In this document: piece after piece, positions 20,002 through 59,713 of the stretch
Position numbering within the stretch: position 1 is the stretch's first letter
Layout: every line of letters starts with the position of its first letter
Assembly (NCBI RefSeq): GCF_009914755.1
Contig: NC_060930.1
Source of the DNA: the human T2T-CHM13v2.0 reference genome, Homo sapiens
Reading direction: 5' to 3' (one strand)
DNA length: 64,000 nucleotides
Notes under the pieces: generated by a model
The model's input: only the letters and a program-made list of their open reading frames with translations
Database searches by the model: none
Told to the model about the DNA's origin: nothing
Made by a program: the position numbers and the translations under genes

Positions 20002-20119
20002 TCAGGAGGTGGCTTTCCGATGGGCCCCTGAGCAGACATAGGAGATGGGATGGCGGGTCCCAGGCCTCACGGTGAACGTGTTGATGGGGCTTCCATAGCG
20101 GGTGGTGGTGTAGGGAGAC
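20002..20119 (-). CDS. C6orf132: C6orf132 last coding exon (SPYTTTRYGSPINTFTVRPGTRHPISYVCSGAHRKATS*)
   Basis: Acceptor ctcttgctctcccccag|G, phase 2; TGA at 20004-20002; total spliced CDS 3567 nt = 1188 aa + stop. Confidence 0.92.
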
Positions 20120-20459: not shown

Positions 20460-21210
20460 CTAGCGGGCGGGAGAGAGACAGACGAGAGGAGCTGGTGGGG
20501 AAAGAGAAGGGAGGTCAGGAGGGAGGTCAGGAAGGCGCCAACAGCGCCCTCTCCCGGTAAGTGGGCCTCCCTCCCGCGTTCTACCTGCAAGGCCGAAGGG
20601 AGAAAACCAAATGTTTTCTCTTGACGGATGGCCGGGACTCCTTGGCCCTCGCCTGGCTTTCCACCCCTCCTGGCTTCCCGCACCAGCCGGGCCCGCAGCT
20701 CACCTGCCGGCAGCTGGGGCGAAGCCGTAGTCGGCGCTGCCGGGCGCTTTGTGCTTGGCCTCCGCGGCGCCCCGGGCGGCGCCCTCCAGGGACAGCCTCG
20801 GCGCGTGCAGGCCTCCGGGGGGCGCGCGACCCGCCGAGTTCACGCGCCGCATCTCGGGGCCTCCGGGCTGCGGCCCGAAGCAGTTGGGAGAGCTCAGGCT
20901 GCGGCCGGTGCCACCGTGGGGTAGCCCTGGGCCTCGGTGCGGCTCCCCGACGTACAGGCGCTTCTTTATGAGCGAGCGGCCCCCTCCCGAGAAGCGCTCC
21001 AGGCCCCCAGCCCCGGCGTAGCGCGCGCCCGCGGGAAAGCGCGAGAAGCCGAGAGCCGGGGGCGCCCCGGGGCCAGCGTTCGGGAGCTGCCTCAAGTCTG
21101 AGTAGTTGTTCCGGGGAGGGGAGCTCTGGCGGCCCAGATACTGGAGGGCCGGGGCCGGGGGCTCAGGGTCATTGCTGAACTCTGGCGGCGGTGGTATGAC
21201 CTCGAAGTTG
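20460..21210. promoter_or_regulatory. Intragenic CpG island over the 3' end of exon 4 and intron 4
   Basis: Sharp local rise in CpG (cgcg, gcgcgcg runs) compared with the CpG-poor remainder of exon 4. Confidence 0.75.
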
Positions 21211-23824
21211 AACTCCTCCTCCTCCTCCTCCCTCTTGTTCGAAGGAGAAGGTGGGGAGGAGAAGGACTTGGGCAGCGGGTGGCCCTGGGGGAGGTTGGAG
21301 GGAGCTACTCTTTCCCAGGCCACAGGGGCCTGGGGCTCTGGCTTTGTCCAGTTGTGCCTGCGGCTCAGCTCTGTGCCCTCTGCGTCTCTTCCCAGCCGCG
21401 GCCCCCACTTATTGGGTATTTCGGTCGTCAGCGGGGAGTCCTTCTCAGCCTCCTTGGGTAACTTGGGCACCACAGTGAAGGAGTTGGGCGTGCCCTGGCT
21501 GTGGAAGATGCTGTCAGAGCTGGCCTCGGCTTGGTGGCTGTGGTCACGGAGACTTCCTGGCAGAGAGGACCGACCCAGGGCAGCCCCTACAGACCTTCCC
21601 TTCTGAGCCCTCTGCCTGGCCGCCAGGAGCAGGGCCATCGGCGAGCCCCGCTCCACCACCTCCCCAGTCACCGGGTGCCTGAGGAGTTCATCAGTGGGCT
21701 GGGCCGAGGCAGGAGGCTTGGCTGGCAGCCCTGGGGGCTCCTTCACCTCCACGGGCTCCCCTGGCCCTGCAGCCCCTCCTCTGGCCAGGGTGGGCATCAC
21801 CACAGCAACCTCACGGCTGAGGCTGCTCTGGTGGCAGTGGGGCTTGTAGAGACATGGCACCTCTCCTCCACCAGGAGATGTCTTTGGTGGGAAGGCTGCA
21901 GATGAGCGGGCTCCCTGTGTGGGCAGCCTAGTGGCCTCTGAGGGGGACCCCTCTCCCCTTGCCTGGGAGGGAGTGGAAACTTCTTGAGATGCTGGCTTCT
22001 CTGGCTGGCCAGCTGGGCCTGAGTCCTTCTCTGCCATCAGTTGGGATGTGGTGGTGGGCAGAGTTGTGGCTGTAGATGCTATGGCAGGGCCAGATGTGGC
22101 CTTGAGTGGTGTGGTTGGCCCAGATGTGGCCTTGAGTGGTGTGGCTGGCCCAAGTGTGGCCTTGGGTGGTGTGGCTGGCCAAAGTGTAGCCTTGGGTGGT
22201 ATGGCTGGCTCAGGTGTGGCCTTGGGTGGTATGGCTGGTCCCAACATAGCCTTGGGCTGGAGTGATGTAGTTGGCAGCAGGGTGGTGGATTGAGGTGGCA
22301 GATTCTTGGCCACAGGCTTGGAGAGTTTGTCATCATCAGCCCCGTTTTCACAAATTCTTCCCCCTTCTAGCCGAGGCTTAGGGGGCAGAGATCCTATGCT
22401 GGGCTTAGCCTCCTTCTCTGCTGCTGAGGAGAGCCGGGCCTCCAGCTCATTCCGGATCTGCCGCACACTGGGAGTTGGAGAGTCTTGGGGAATGTAGTCC
22501 ACAGAGGGCAGGGTCAGGCTGGGGGCAGCCTCTGTCTCTGTCAGGCTGCTGCCGCCAAGACTCTTTTCAGGAACACCTGGGGGAGTGTCCTTTGCTGGCA
22601 GGCTCAGGGGAGTCTCCTTCTCAGGCAGGCGGGGGCCCTTCTTGCCCTCCTTGCTCTGAGGGGCCACTGTTGGGCCTGGCCTGTGACTGAGGAATCGGTC
22701 CTCTCTCCTGGAGCCACAGAGATAGGCTGCCAGCTCGTTCCGCAGCTTTTCCATCTGGCTGGGGTCCCTCCAGTCCACAGGTGCTGAAGACGCTGTGTTC
22801 TCTGGGCTGGGGGGGTTGGGTTTGGGTTTGAGAGCAGGAGAGCTGGATTTAGGGGTTTTTGTAAACCCAGCAGGTGGATGGGCTGCCTTCTGAGCACAGG
22901 GCAAAGGAGGTGCAGCTGGGGGAAGTGGGGGTGCTGGGGGAGGGAGGGGGGGTGCAGGAGGGGGCAGGGGAGGGGCTGGAGGCGGAGTCCCAGCTCGTTC
23001 ATCTGCTTGGGACTGGGACTGGCCAAGCCTTGGGCTGGCTGGTGCTGTGGCCTTGAGCTCCCCAGGGCAGTCTGGCTCGGGGGCCCTGTCTGGGTAGACC
23101 TGGGAGGCGGGGCGGATGTGGAAGCTGGGAGGCAGTGGGAGTCGGCTGGGAGCCTTCTTGGTGGCCCCCTCTTCCTTTCGGGGAGCCTCTTGTGCTTCCT
23201 GAACTGGGATGGACGAAGTCCTGACTGGGGTTGGGGGAGGCACTTTGAAAGAACGGGGGAAGGTGAGATGGGGCTCTGGGTTAGGTCCCAGGGCGCTCCC
23301 CTTTGGCTCAGCAGGGCTTCTCGGGGGGCTGGCTCTGGTGGCCTCTGCCTGCCTGCCATTCAGTGCTACATCTGATTTCCACTTGGTGACACCCCCAGGG
23401 GGAAAGAGACGAGTCCCCACTGTGTGAGGAGATGCTGGAGCTGGGGGTGCTGGGGCTGGCACAGGAGGCGGTGGGGGGGCTAGAAAGGCCAAGGGTGGGG
23501 CAGGGGGAATGAAGTCAGGAGGGGTGGGTATGGATGGGGAGGAAAGAGTGTGTGGTGGGGATAGGGCCTCCAATACTGGGGGTGGAGGTGGGGCCATGCT
23601 GGGCGGGGGTGGGGGTTCCAGCAGCAGGGGAGGTGGTGGGGGTGCTGTGGAAGGTGGAGATGGCAGTGGCGACCCCCCTGGAGGTTCTGAAATGTCCTGA
23701 GGGGGCCCTGGGGCTGGGCCTGGGGGAGGTGGGGGGATGAGTAGATCCTGGCCATATTGTCCAGGCCTCAGGTCACCCACAGAGCTGTACAGTCGGAGGT
23801 TGCCATTGACTAGTGAGCTGGTAC
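20704..23824 (-). CDS. C6orf132: C6orf132 coding exon 4 (3121-nt internal exon, proline-rich disordered region)
   Basis: Lies in the 1060-aa ORF 20700..23882; acceptor ctccttctttcag|GT at 23824; donor GGCAG|gtgagc at 20704; phases match both neighbours. Confidence 0.95.
22074..22253 (-). repeat. Coding 30-bp tandem repeat, 6 units (KAT[L/S]GPA[T/I]P[P/L] decapeptide)
   Basis: KAMLGPAIPP/KATPEPAIPP/KATLWPATPP/KATLGPATPL/KATSGPTTPL/KATSGPAIAS; 30-nt periodicity visible in the DNA. Confidence 0.9.
22899..22985 (-). repeat. Coding polyproline heptad repeat (PPPAPPL)x4
   Basis: Translation PPPAPPLPPPAPPLPPPAPPLPPAAPPLP; G-run-rich on the + strand. Confidence 0.85.
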
Positions 23825-26456: not shown

Positions 26457-26532
26457 CTGTCACTTCTTTGTCTGCAAAATCATCTGGAACCGAGGGGGTG
26501 GGCACAGCCAGCCCATGGTTTTCCTGGGCATT
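26457..26532 (-). CDS. C6orf132: C6orf132 coding exon 3 (NAQENHGLAVPTPSVPDDFADKEVT, 76 nt)
   Basis: Acceptor ctctttcag|AAT and donor ACAG|gtaagt; phase 0 in, phase 1 out. Confidence 0.9.
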
Positions 26533-39882: not shown

Positions 39883-42269
39883 TCACCCCTCACTCAGCCA
39901 GGCCTCCAATGTTGTACCCGGGACCAGCCTGGGGAGAAGGCCTGGCTCCTATCCCTGCTTCTATCGAGCCCAGTGGCCTGGACAGGGCCCTCCCCTCCCC
40001 AGGCCGCAGTATTCTCATCTTGACAACTGCTGTAGTCCTACCCCCTCTGAAGTTTGGTGGCTCAAATCCAGCTCCTCACGGCTCCCCAAGCTGGAAGGTG
40101 GGGTTGCACCAGTAGCTGGAAAACCTCCCTTTCCAGAGGCGGAAGCAGAGCTCAAGGAGGGGTCCATGTGTCATTAGGGCCTGGCTTCTCCGGTGGCCCT
40201 CCAGGGAGCTGACCACACCATCTACCCTTCCGTTAGGAAGTCATTTTAACACAGAAAGTCGTGGCTGGGGAGACCCTTGAGGACTATGCAGTGTGACCCC
40301 CACTGTTGGGTGAGGAGCCAGAGGCCCAGGGAGAGGAAGGGACTGGCCTGCAGCCACCCCGCATCCCAGCAGCAGAGCTGGGACTGGTGTCAGCTGCTGG
40401 AGTATTAGCCCCTGGTCCCATCCCAGCCACTGAGGGATCCCGAGGTCCTTTTCCTAGCTGGCCTTTGGCTGCTGGATGCCTGATAAACACTTCGTAATTC
40501 CCAGCACCCACAGCACACAGAACAAGGGAACTCTGGGGAAGGGGGCAGAAGCGCCTGTTGCTGCCTTGTCTCCTTCTCTCTAGCTCTGTCCCCTGGCAGG
40601 CTCCTGTAGGGCACTGACAGGGAGGGTAGGCTCAGAAGATGGCCCAGGCCTGGAGAGAGCTCACAGGCCCTCGAGGGGCCTGTCACCTGACTTCTTGGGC
40701 ACTGCTACCTCGTACCTCCCCTACCCACTGGGCAGCCTGGCCTGGGAGGTGCCTCTGAATGTGGGAAGGGAGGACAGGGAGGGGTGGAGGCCTGGCCGGC
40801 TGGGACAGTGTCAGGCAGGGCTAGGCACCGGCCCAGCTCCCCACCCACCCTGACTTGGTGGGGCTGGGGGATGGGGTGTGTGCGTGTGCATGTGTGTGTG
40901 AGCCCACACCCACACAGAGCTTGTCCTCCCTCTTCTCCCCATCCTTCTGGCCTTCTGTCCCTGCTGAAAGAAAGCAAAGGACCTGGCTAGGGCCTACAGG
41001 AGAGGAGTCAGAAGCTCAGACAGGAGAGAATTAAGCCGCCAGCCGGATTCCCCTCCACCCGGGAGCAAGCGACGAACGACATGGAAGCTGCCCTATCTTG
41101 TGACCTGAGTGAGGAGCACAGAAGAGTCCCTGTGATGTGGGCCACTGGGCCAAGGGTTCCTAATCTAAAGGCATATCATGGGTGGGCTTCAGTCCCCTGC
41201 TGAAATTGTAAGCAAAACTAGATGTATGTGGCTCACAGCCTCATCATGGCGTCAAAAGCATCTATGAGCCAAAAGTGGCAAGAGGCCTGGTGCCCAGCAG
41301 GCCCAGGCTGCTGGACAGGGATTCAGAGAGGCAGGCAAGGGAGGTGGGAGTGGTTTTGCCGCCTGGTCCTGGAAGGAGAAGGAAAAAGCTTCTATGTAGC
41401 AGGTGGAGGGAGAGTAGAACGGTCTGAATAGAACTTGGACCCTGGAGCCTGGCTTCAGGGATTCCAGTCGCGCTCTGCCACTTAGCCGCAATACCTTAAG
41501 CAAGTTACGCCACCCTGTGCCTCAGTTTCCCTGCCTGTAACATGGGGATTAATGACAGCACCTTGCTCGGAGGGTGGCTTTGTTAACACACATGGTCCAC
41601 GTGGAATGGTGCCTGGCACACAGTGAGTGCTCAGCATACGGTGGCCACGATCACAGGCCGTGCCACTGGATGGGGTTGGCAAGTGGCTCCATCTGCCTTT
41701 CCCCGGTTAGCCAGCACCGAGGGAACGAGTGAACTTCCCCTTCCTGGTTCAGTTCCTGCCTCTGTAAAATGAGGCCCCTTTCAGCCGTCGGTTCACCATG
41801 TGTCCATTCTTTCACCCTCACCAGTGAGGGGGTGTGAGTTTTTAGGGAGAAGCCCCCATTTCCTGGGACTGGTTCTGAGGCTTGCCCAAAAGAACTGCTC
41901 CCAGGAAGTATTTCCCCAGGACAGCCTGGAACTCAGGCCTGACCAGCCAGCCCAGCCCACTCCAGGGGCCCCAGAGCCTTTGGCCAGGTCTGCCTGGGGT
42001 CTATGCAGCCCCTGAGTCATGTTCTGCCCAGACCAGATCCAAACCAGAGCCAGAGAGGGCTGGAAGGTGAGGATTTGCTCTGGTCTTTGAGGGGCCCATA
42101 GCAGATAGCTGGGGGGAGATAAGGATGCCCACCAATCAGAACGAACTCAGCTGGGCCCACATTAACTCTTTAGTTGCTGCTTTTGGGGGTGGTCCAGATC
42201 TAGGCGAGGGGCAGGACAGCAGGAGCCACTCCAGGGGCAACATCCGTTTCTACTGTGTAGAGAAGTATT

Positions 42270-43437
<1,168 letters not shown>

Positions 43438-44875: not shown

Positions 44876-44982
44876 CAGCGGAAGGAAGGTCAGCAGGGGC
44901 CGGACTCTTGGCCGAGCTTTCAGCGTGGCTGTTCCTGACTCGCTCACTGTGTTAAACCGATTGTCTCCATAATAGATGCCAT
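44876..44982 (-). CDS. C6orf132: C6orf132 coding exon 2 (DGIYYGDNRFNTVSESGTATLKARPRVRPLLTFLPL, 107 nt)
   Basis: Acceptor ttctctag|AT and donor CTG|gtgagt; phase 1 in, phase 0 out; not in the ORF track, found by reading. Confidence 0.9.

Positions 44983-58204: not shown

Positions 58205-59713
<1,509 letters not shown>

What the first reader, a model, noticed from the sequence alone, without database searches (positions are those of the whole stretch)
21606..21677. C6orf132 carries a SHANK-family signature motif (HPxTG-x6-SPxALxLAARxRA)
Seen: residues ~826-849 read HPVTGEVVERGSPMALLLAARQRA, a low-proline island in a disordered region. Recalled: SHANK1/2/3 share a conserved block in their proline-rich region, approximately HPLTGKPLDPSSPLALALAARERA in SHANK3. 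It aligns without gaps and with about 14/24 identities. Inference: this uncharacterised protein shares a binding module with SHANK scaffolds and may be a SHANK-tail relative lacking ANK/SH3/PDZ/SAM. I am not aware of this being described.
Basis: partly seen in the sequence, partly recalled or inferred. Interest (0 to 1): 0.9.

Follow-up and report, generated by a model that had tools for sequence, protein, structure and literature searches.

The report
C6orf132 shares SHANK tail motifs
The uncharacterised human protein C6orf132 carries the same short, deeply conserved turn-plus-helix element as the three SHANK synaptic scaffold proteins, followed in the same order by a SHANK-like Homer-type docking motif, so it looks like a domain-less relative of the SHANK tail.

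Summary
Window 21606-21677 (-) encodes C6orf132 residues 826-849, HPVTGEVVERGSPMALLLAARQRA (14 of 24 identical to SHANK3, no gaps). A profile built only from SHANK sequences, run on the six-frame human genome, finds SHANK2, SHANK3 and SHANK1, then C6orf132 (E=0.0029, 28.9 bits), then noise (E>=2.15). None of 5000 shuffles of C6orf132 reaches its score. A combined profile finds these four loci and nothing else.

The block is present in 118 of 120 mammalian entries, 4 of 4 sauropsid entries and 120 of 120 SHANK entries. A second block follows in the same order (EFNFEVIPPPPEFSN against SHANK EF.F.EPLPPPLEF[SA]N, the Homer-type PPxxF site). Family-against-family hhalign joins both blocks (95.4%, E=1.8e-8). 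With block 1 removed, block 2 still aligns (P=0.0018).

The large exons share intron phases (1 in, 2 out). Synteny is suggestive only. AlphaFold2 predicts the same confident turn-plus-helix in both families within otherwise disordered sequence. C6orf132 has no ANK, SH3, PDZ or SAM domain.

Binding itself and the partner are untested. No paper I could search describes this link.

The parts
21606..21677 (-). Block 1 as flagged: C6orf132 residues 826-849, HPVTGEVVERGSPMALLLAARQRA
   Evidence: The SHANK-only profile matches residues 826-851 at 22.4 bits. Genome-wide E=0.0029.
21600..21695 (-). Full predicted structured element, residues about 820-851: a turn around HPVTG (beta-bridge between R825 and V832), then an S837-P838-capped amphipathic basic helix at 838-851
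   Evidence: AlphaFold2 on a 22-sequence alignment: pLDDT 77/88/88 for segment residues 31-60, helix at 49-62, bridges at 36 and 43. SHANK3 gives the same pattern at the same alignment positions.
21165..21215 (-). Block 2: residues 980-996, EFNFEVIPPPPEFSNDP. It contains a PPxxF core (P988-F992, window 21177-21191) with SHANK-like flanks
   Evidence: Conservation 0.91 across all orthologues and 0.98 in marsupials. It is aligned to the SHANK PPxxF site in one collinear hhalign alignment, and alone after block 1 was removed, P=0.0018. The mixed SHANK profile gives only 3.5 bits, which 32-41 of 5000 shuffles reach. It was not retrieved genome-wide.
20704..23824 (-). Large coding exon of C6orf132 (3121 nt) that holds both blocks. 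It is entered in intron phase 1 and left in phase 2
   Evidence: Annotation given with the finding, plus arithmetic (328 nt of CDS before the exon, 3449 nt after it). The SHANK1 and SHANK3 large proline-rich exons have the same phases.

Best explanation
The large exon of C6orf132 is a diverged homologue of the proline-rich 'tail' exon of the SHANK genes, probably an old vertebrate paralogue that kept none of the folded SHANK domains. Two short functional elements survive in the same order inside otherwise unalignable disordered sequence. (1) A roughly 30-residue element with the pattern hydrophobic-H-P-[VL]-T-G, six residues, S-P-[ML]-[AG]-L-x-L-[AS]-A-[RKQ]-x-R-A. It is predicted to form a tight turn followed by a Ser-Pro-capped helix that is hydrophobic at its start and basic at its end. 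I read it as a docking element that is preformed or folds on binding, for a partner that SHANK proteins and C6orf132 share and that is not yet known. (2) About 160 residues downstream (about 210 in SHANK) lies a PPxxF motif with SHANK-type flanks. In SHANK this is the Homer EVH1 docking site (established knowledge, recalled). C6orf132 would then work as a domain-less, SHANK-tail-like adaptor. In epithelial cells it would bring Homer, the unknown block-1 partner and binders of its long poly-proline tracts together at the cell cortex. The epithelial setting is suggested by passages that list E-cadherin and ezrin as interactors or co-expressed genes. SHOWN: the shared blocks, their significance, order, conservation, predicted local structure and matching exon phases. 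INFERRED: common descent, docking function, Homer binding and site of action.
For: Specificity of block 1: the SHANK-only profile gives E=0.0029 and rank 4 of 11 hits from 65 scored candidates, with the next hit at E=2.15. The other hits are off-strand or intergenic. 0 of 5000 shuffles reach the real score under each of three nulls. The combined profile finds only SHANK1-3 and C6orf132 (E<=5e-17), then E=0.75. Conservation: block 1 is in 118 of 120 mammalian entries, 4 of 4 sauropsid entries and 120 of 120 SHANK entries from sharks to mammals. Sauropsid C6orf132 reads LIHPVTG, closer to SHANK [FL]IHPLTG. Collinearity: hhalign family against family gives one alignment from block 1 to block 2, probability 95.4%, E=1.8e-8, 155 columns. 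With block 1 cut away, the top alignment is block 2, P=0.0018. Both blocks occur in order in 111 of 120 mammalian, 4 of 4 sauropsid and 65 of 120 SHANK entries by strict regex. Most SHANK misses are the spelling PPPLQFAN. Gene structure: phase 1 in and phase 2 out for the large exons of SHANK1, SHANK3 and C6orf132. Structure: block 1 is the only confident segment in both AlphaFold2 models, with an identical DSSP pattern. No folded domain: Pfam returns 0 families at E<=1. Synteny: CCND3-TAF8-C6orf132 against CCND1...CTTN-SHANK2. At +/-100 genes there are 13 shared small families against a null mean of 2.9 (54 of 3000 random neighbourhoods reach 13).
Against: Outside the two blocks nothing aligns. 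The best upstream match is a poly-proline stretch at P=0.035. Block 2 alone is weak. It was not retrieved from the genome by the SHANK block-2 profile (7 hits at E<=10 from 29 candidates, none in C6orf132). It scores 3.5 bits, which 32-41 of 5000 shuffles reach. PPxxF-type motifs are short and can arise independently. Synteny is not robust: 295 of 3000 random neighbourhoods reach the count at +/-50 genes and 242 of 3000 at +/-150 genes, and families were defined only by name stems. Matching phases have a chance of roughly 0.07, using phase frequencies I recalled. High pLDDT partly reflects conservation in the alignment. No partner is known. Pfam and PDB searches gave nothing, and the Atlas search gave only its own clusters and generic disordered proteins below 0.9. 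I could not read fish or frog C6orf132 or any invertebrate Shank sequence, so the age and direction of the relationship are open.
Confidence: 0.7

Rival explanations
1. Convergence: C6orf132 and SHANK are unrelated disordered proteins that independently evolved the same docking motifs because they use the same partners.
For: Nothing outside the two blocks aligns. No shared folded domain exists. Block 2 is a short motif and weak on its own. Synteny support depends on window size.
Against: Block 1 is 24 residues long, gapless, with 14 identities and conservative changes elsewhere, which is far more than convergent short motifs usually share. The blocks share order and similar spacing: median 163 residues in C6orf132 and 213 in SHANK. 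The exon phases are the same. The flanks of block 2 are shared as well (EF.F.E before the prolines, [SA]N after the Phe).
Confidence: 0.2
2. Chance resemblance between two low-complexity, proline- and alanine-rich disordered regions.
For: Individual six-frame E-values with the single C6orf132 query were only 0.12-0.22. BLASTP against the SHANK3 exon did not give a significant block-1 alignment.
Against: All three non-self hits are SHANK paralogues. The SHANK-only profile gives E=0.0029 with a 9-bit gap to noise. 0 of 5000 composition-preserving shuffles reach the real score. hhalign gives E=1.8e-8. The block is the most conserved island of the C-terminal half in both families.
Confidence: 0.03
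3. Block 1 is not a protein-docking site. It is a membrane-binding or actin-binding amphipathic helix (WH2 or Ena/VASP-GAB-like), or an intramolecular element.
For: The helix is hydrophobic at its N-terminal end and basic at its C-terminal end. C6orf132 has long poly-proline tracts like actin regulators. SHANK1 and SHANK2 end the helix with L/M-K-E-S, loosely like a recalled WH2 'LKKV'.
Against: Pfam gave no WH2 match, even for the bare 41-residue blocks at E<=10. The real VASP G-actin-binding helix scores at noise against both block profiles: -1.1 bits (420 of 2000 shuffles reach it) and -2.1 bits (1051 of 2000). The LK-type ending is absent from SHANK3 and C6orf132. The invariant HPxTG turn has no counterpart in WH2.
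Confidence: 0.1

Closest known systems
SHANK1, SHANK2 and SHANK3 (ProSAP) postsynaptic scaffold proteins, specifically their large proline-rich exon
   Same: Block 1 (HPxTG-x6-SPxxLxLxAxxRA) and the PPxxF block with its flanks, in the same order. Both sit in one very large exon with intron phases 1 and 2. The same turn-plus-helix is predicted. The surrounding sequence is disordered and proline-rich.
   Different: C6orf132 has no ANK repeats, SH3, PDZ or SAM domain (Pfam: 0 families). It has an unrelated, well conserved N-terminus. No cortactin-type motif was found by hhalign. Its C-terminal islands (RPLIKKRLYV, NTFTVRPGTR) have no SHANK counterpart. The few passages that mention it place it with E-cadherin and ezrin, not with synapses.
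Homer EVH1 ligands (PPxxF class; consensus recalled, not from a call)
   Same: C6orf132 P988-P-P-E-F992 fits PPxxF. It also shares the SHANK-specific flanks, and PPPPEF is invariant from human to gecko and birds.
   Different: Binding to Homer was not tested. The two-protein predictor is off, and no paper I could search links C6orf132 and Homer (8 co-mentions, judged from their titles and abstract starts to be gene lists or the HOMER software).
Conditionally folding recognition elements (MoRFs) in disordered scaffold proteins
   Same: An isolated island of high conservation and high local AlphaFold2 confidence in a disordered chain.
   Different: This is a descriptive class, not a family. The partner here is unknown.

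Membership tests
SHANK family (SH3 and multiple ankyrin repeat domains) | Ankyrin repeat region | tested here: not met
   Pfam scan of the 1188-residue protein returned 0 families at E<=1.
SHANK family (SH3 and multiple ankyrin repeat domains) | SH3 and PDZ domains | tested here: not met
   Pfam returned 0 families. The SHANK entries carry PF00595, PF17820, PF00018 and PF07653; C6orf132 entries carry none.
SHANK family (SH3 and multiple ankyrin repeat domains) | C-terminal SAM domain | tested here: not met
   Pfam returned 0 families. The last exon encodes only 39 residues.
SHANK family (SH3 and multiple ankyrin repeat domains) | Conserved HPLTG...SPLxLALAARERA block in the proline-rich region (present in 120 of 120 SHANK entries seen) | tested here: met
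SHANK family (SH3 and multiple ankyrin repeat domains) | Homer-binding PPxxF site with EF.F...PPP.EF[SA]N flanks, downstream of the block | tested here: met
   Met at the sequence level only. It is weak as a stand-alone genome-wide signal.
SHANK family (SH3 and multiple ankyrin repeat domains) | Cortactin-binding proline motif downstream of the Homer site (feature recalled) | tested here: inconclusive
   hhalign of the downstream regions found only block 2; the next alignment had P=0.91. No dedicated motif search was run.
SHANK family (SH3 and multiple ankyrin repeat domains) | Large proline-rich exon flanked by phase-1 and phase-2 introns | tested here: met
   SHANK1 and SHANK3 junctions were read. 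C6orf132 phases come from the annotation. The SHANK2 junctions were not read.
Homer EVH1 ligands | PPxxF core | tested here: met
   PPPEF at residues 988-992. I197-P-P-P-P-E-F203 of the segment is invariant in 22 aligned sequences.
Homer EVH1 ligands | Physical binding to a Homer EVH1 domain | not testable with these tools
   The two-protein predictor is off. No solved structure matches.
WH2 / Ena-VASP G-actin-binding helices | Match to the WH2 profile or to the VASP GAB helix | tested here: not met
   No Pfam WH2 hit. VASP scores at noise against the block profiles.
Pfam PF08793 2C_adapt (2-cysteine adaptor domain) | Score above the gathering cutoff of 22 bits | tested here: not met
   SHANK blocks score 12.7-15.2 bits. 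C6orf132 has no match.

The most novel reading that the evidence does not exclude
C6orf132 is the fourth vertebrate ohnologue of the SHANK genes. It would be a 'SHANK4' that kept only the proline-rich tail exon (as the short internal-promoter SHANK isoforms do, from recall), gained a new N-terminus and moved to epithelia. Block 1 would be a new class of turn-plus-helix recognition module. Its still unknown partner would be a core, overlooked component of both the postsynaptic density and the epithelial cortex. The schizophrenia-linked SHANK3 R1117X truncation would cut inside this module.
Probability: 0.3. Interest if true: 0.8.

Novelty: new variant of a known kind. Interest (0 to 1): 0.62.

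Why it matters
SHANK3 is one of the best established single-gene causes of autism and Phelan-McDermid syndrome. Its proline-rich region is understood only through a few mapped docking sites. The block studied here is among the most conserved parts of that region: it is nearly invariant from sharks to humans in the 120 SHANK entries I saw. I found no paper that names it or gives it a partner. Finding the same element in one other human gene gives two independent baits for partner discovery and an evolutionary comparison. It also gives a first functional hypothesis for a 'dark' human protein: a Homer-linked, SHANK-tail-like adaptor in epithelia.

Tried and rejected
A third shared block. C6orf132 'RPLIKKRLYVSEP' against SHANK 'PLVKQ..VE..P' gave BLASTP E=0.40 and is not collinear. 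It was not among the top hhalign alignments of the C6orf132 downstream region against the SHANK upstream region (best P=0.12 for a different pair). Rejected.

Upstream similarity. The best match is a poly-proline stretch at P=0.035, and 'LTFPRSFKVP' against 'MKFSRSLSVP' gave P=0.29. Not supported.

WH2 or VASP-like actin-binding helix. Rejected.

Tankyrase-binding reading of mammalian 'RHPVTGE' (consensus recalled). The Arg is Ile in sauropsid C6orf132 and Ile or Val in the SHANKs. Rejected as the conserved function.

Pfam, PDB and ESM Atlas. No family, no solved relative and no useful look-alike. The Atlas hits below 0.9 are its own clusters plus generic disordered proteins.

Structure-library search of the two models. 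Not run, because both models are mostly disordered (mean pLDDT 57.2 and 50.6) and the tool warns that such models give meaningless matches.

Synteny. Three window sizes were tried, and only the middle one stands out. I report all three and treat it as suggestive.

Literature. 'C6orf132' appears in 68 papers, of which 30 were listed. C6orf132 with Shank gives 4, with Homer 8 and with BioID 0. Judged from titles and abstract starts, these are gene lists or unrelated. Peptide strings of the SHANK block appear in 4 unrelated papers. A broad SHANK motif search found 1 unrelated paper. I read passages only of PMC10298883, 10.64898/2026.01.14.699493, 10.1101/844811 and PMC12335487. All other papers I saw only as search listings. 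Supplementary tables are closed and could hold interaction data that bear on the partner question.

Fish and amphibian C6orf132 and invertebrate Shank sequences were therefore not examined. One search listed only the best 120 of 250 hits, and the best 120 of 345.
Full report
OBSERVATION. Window 21606-21677 on the minus strand translates to HPVTGEVVERGSPMALLLAARQRA. Splicing the annotated coding exons gives a 1188-residue protein in which this is residues 826-849.

IS THE SHANK RESEMBLANCE REAL? I did not rely on recalled SHANK sequence. A six-frame search of the whole reference genome with C6orf132 residues 810-870 returned 4 matches from 6 candidates. These were the query's own locus and three others, which lie inside SHANK1 (chr19), SHANK3 (chr22) and SHANK2 (chr11), with E 0.12-0.22 each (gene coordinates). 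BLASTP of the large exons gave E=4e-5 against SHANK1 and 1e-4 against SHANK2. Against SHANK3 the block came out only as a truncated, non-significant alignment.

I collected SHANK proteins with a region-restricted search; 120 of 345 hits were listed, and they are SHANK1 and SHANK3 from sharks to mammals. All 120 carry the block: 111 by a strict pattern and 9 with one Ala-to-Val change. A 15-sequence, 41-column profile made only of SHANK sequences was run on the six-frame genome. SHANK2, SHANK3 and SHANK1 scored E about 1e-19 to 1e-17. C6orf132 came fourth at E=0.0029 (28.9 bits). The next hit was E=2.15 (19.7 bits), with 11 hits from 65 scored candidates. The remaining hits are intergenic or on the wrong strand of a gene. 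Locally the profile scores 22.4 bits at residues 826-851. None of 5000 shuffles reached this under global, 100-residue-window or 40-residue-window shuffling; the highest null score was 11.0. A combined SHANK plus C6orf132 profile finds four loci at E<=5e-17 and then E=0.75. Within the limits of that search, which scores only its best candidates, the element occurs in four human genes.

CONSERVATION IN ORTHOLOGUES. A search whose words came from the first 500 residues of the exon, and so did not depend on the block, listed 120 of 250 hits, all mammalian C6orf132. In an alignment of the 97 entries of 1000 residues or more, all 97 show the block without internal gaps. A relaxed pattern finds it in 118 of all 120; the two misses are 981 and 611 residues long. 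Identity to human averages 0.96 over residues 827-849, against 0.69 for the whole protein. In marsupials the figure is 0.93 there, against 0.05-0.35 in the 150 residues upstream. A 560-residue C-terminal query was chosen so that the tool's length window would leave out most full-length mammalian entries. It brought in four sauropsid proteins, two geckos and two birds. All four carry LIHPVTGE.VERGSPMALLLAA[RQ]QRAQRGR. The Ile before the His matches SHANK ([FL]IHPLTG) better than mammalian C6orf132 does. Passages in two preprints show that a gene or protein annotated as c6orf132 exists in a mormyrid fish and in Xenopus. I could not see those sequences.

A SECOND, COLLINEAR BLOCK. C6orf132 residues 980-996, EFNFEVIPPPPEFSNDP, resemble SHANK1 EFLFVEPLPPPLEFSNS, SHANK2 DFIFTEPLPPPLEFANS and SHANK3 LVPPPEEFAN. 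From established knowledge (recalled), this PPxxF site in SHANK is the Homer EVH1 docking site. It is a conservation island in C6orf132, at 0.91 across all orthologues and 0.98 in marsupials, and PPPPEF is invariant from human to gecko and birds. The evidence is mixed and I report both sides. On one side, a SHANK-only profile of this block did not retrieve C6orf132 from the genome (7 hits at E<=10 from 29 candidates). Locally it scores only 3.5 bits, which 32-41 of 5000 shuffles reach. On the other side, hhalign of a 16-sequence C6orf132 alignment against a 15-sequence SHANK alignment gives a single local alignment running from block 1 to block 2: probability 95.4%, E=1.8e-8, 155 columns. When block 1 is cut away from both families, the best alignment of the downstream regions is exactly block 2 (P=0.0018, 37 columns). 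By strict pattern, both blocks occur in this order in 111 of 120 mammalian, 4 of 4 sauropsid and 65 of 120 SHANK entries. Of the 55 SHANK misses, 46 have a PPxxF motif in the expected stretch, nearly all with the teleost spelling EFVFADPLPPPLQFAN, and 9 have none, at least three of these being models that end within 220 residues of block 1. The median spacing is 163 residues in C6orf132 and 213 in SHANK.

DESCENT OR CONVERGENCE. Two further lines were tested. (i) Gene structure. tblastn of SHANK proteins on 10-kb genomic stretches, followed by reading the junctions, shows that the large proline-rich exons of SHANK1 and SHANK3 are entered in intron phase 1 (...KS[IV]G split after its first base) and left in phase 2. 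The 3121-nt C6orf132 exon also has phase 1 in (328 nt of CDS before it) and phase 2 out (3449 nt). With recalled phase frequencies, the chance of this match is about 0.07. (ii) Paralogous neighbourhoods. CCND3-TAF8-C6orf132 on chr6 mirrors CCND1...PPFIA1-CTTN-SHANK2 on chr11. I counted small name-stem families shared between the C6orf132 neighbourhood and the three SHANK neighbourhoods. At +/-50 genes there are 3 (295 of 3000 random neighbourhoods reach this). At +/-100 genes there are 13, against a null mean of 2.9 (54 of 3000). At +/-150 genes there are 16 (242 of 3000). This is suggestive but not robust. Outside the two blocks, nothing convincing aligns. I judge common descent of the exon more likely than convergence, at roughly 0.7 to 0.2. 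The main reason is that a gapless 24-residue match with 14 identities, a second block in order, and matching phases together are hard to obtain independently.

WHAT THE ELEMENT LOOKS LIKE. AlphaFold2 was run on C6orf132 residues 790-1010 with a 22-sequence alignment. The model is disordered overall (mean pLDDT 57.2) except for block 1: pLDDT is 77, 88 and 88 for segment residues 31-60, with a beta-bridge between the residue before the His and the second residue after the Gly, and a helix at 838-851 that starts at the Pro of the invariant Ser-Pro. The equivalent SHANK3 segment, with a 17-sequence alignment, gives the same pattern at the same alignment positions, with pLDDT 77, 90 and 89. Columns invariant across both families are H, P, T, G, S, P, L, L, A and R. 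The helix is hydrophobic at its start and basic at its end. This is the signature of a recognition element that is preformed or folds on binding. High pLDDT also partly reflects conservation, so this supports the reading but does not prove it.

HOW IT MOST LIKELY WORKS. The blocks, their specificity, order, conservation, predicted local structure and exon phases are shown. The rest is inferred. Block 1 would dock a partner common to SHANK proteins and C6orf132. The PPxxF block would dock Homer. C6orf132, which has no Pfam domain, would act as a SHANK-tail-like adaptor. The only contextual clue is from passages in PMC10298883, which list E-cadherin, ezrin and ESR1 in its sub-interactome and report strong co-expression with E-cadherin and ezrin in colon. 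I could not identify the partner. A WH2 or VASP-like actin-binding reading was tested and rejected. A sub-threshold Pfam match of the SHANK blocks to 2C_adapt (12.7-15.2 bits, cutoff 22) is absent from C6orf132. PDB and Atlas searches gave nothing.

COMPARISON WITH WHAT IS KNOWN, AND NOVELTY. C6orf132 fails four defining SHANK features (ANK, SH3, PDZ, SAM), so it is not a SHANK family member in the domain sense. It shares the tail's two most conserved linear elements and the exon architecture. I therefore file it as a new variant of a known kind. In the searchable library, C6orf132 appears in 68 papers, none about its protein function as far as the listing of 30 shows. The 4 co-mentions with Shank and the 8 with Homer are gene lists or unrelated, judged from titles and abstract starts. 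The peptide strings of the block are not in print in this context. Subscription journals and supplementary tables were not searchable.

VERDICT. Interest is 0.62. It gives a concrete, testable handle on an orphan, deeply conserved element of a major autism gene, and a first hypothesis for an uncharacterised human protein. The function itself remains inferred.

Noticed in passing
L003:1591-1599 (SHANK3 block, chr22); not in the window: The published SHANK3 nonsense variant R1117X lies in exon 21 (passages of PMC12335487). If the recalled Homer-site proline P1311 is the middle Pro of LVPPPEEF, the numbering offset puts R1117 at the first Arg of AARERA, inside block 1. Both Arg codons there are CGA in the reference. 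A second recalled landmark, A1227, fits an offset two residues smaller, which would make it the second Arg. This is unverified, and because the variant is a truncation its position says little about the block's function.
   Followed up: partly
window about 22083-22235 (-), C6orf132 residues about 640-690: About five tandem ten-residue units of the type A-[IT]-P-[PL]-K-A-T-x-x-P. They are very poorly conserved, with 0.05-0.14 identity to human in marsupials. This looks like a recent repeat expansion.
   Followed up: no
window 21465-21488 (-) (residues 889-896) and 20002-20119 (-) (last exon, residues about 1162-1170): There are two copies of an N-[ST]-F-T-V-x-P motif (NSFTVVP and NTFTVRPGTR). 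Both are conserved from human to birds and geckos. The first has the third-highest local pLDDT, about 67, in the model. It loosely recalls a WAVE-complex WIRS motif (consensus recalled), but the hydrophobic first position is not conserved.
   Followed up: no
window 58510-58654, 44876-44982, 26457-26532 (-) and the start of the large exon (residues 1-128): The N-terminal 128 residues are strongly conserved from human to birds: a polybasic start MKK..QGTFS.LFGK, then NPPWIFTQE, then YYGDNRF..SGTATLK.RPRVRPLLTFLPLNAQE. They have no Pfam match. This region is unrelated to SHANK and may be the membrane- or cortex-targeting part.
   Followed up: no
window about 20937-20978 (-), residues about 1059-1072; and residues 1084-1089: A conserved island [RP]-L-I-K-K-R-L-Y-V-x-E-P runs from human to gecko and is not significantly SHANK-like. 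Nearby, R-S-L-S-S-P fits a recalled 14-3-3 mode-1 consensus.
   Followed up: partly
SHANK loci L002-L004 (blocks): The SHANK blocks, but not the C6orf132 block, give a sub-threshold match to Pfam PF08793 2C_adapt, a small viral adaptor domain with an NPxTGRxI-type turn (E 0.025-0.15, 12.7-15.2 bits, cutoff 22). It may be only a shared turn motif.
   Followed up: no
window 42133-43033 (-): This is an annotated C6orf132 exon with no coding part, so it is an alternative or non-coding exon. Several listed papers concern a circular RNA from this gene, circC6orf132 (listing only). I did not examine it.
   Followed up: no
window 23100-23500 and 22580-22660 (-), residues about 140-235 and 391-416: Long poly-proline tracts and APPLPPP repeats, of the kind that bind profilin, Ena/VASP EVH1 or SH3 domains (class knowledge, recalled). 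They are partly conserved in marsupials and in one bird entry.
   Followed up: no
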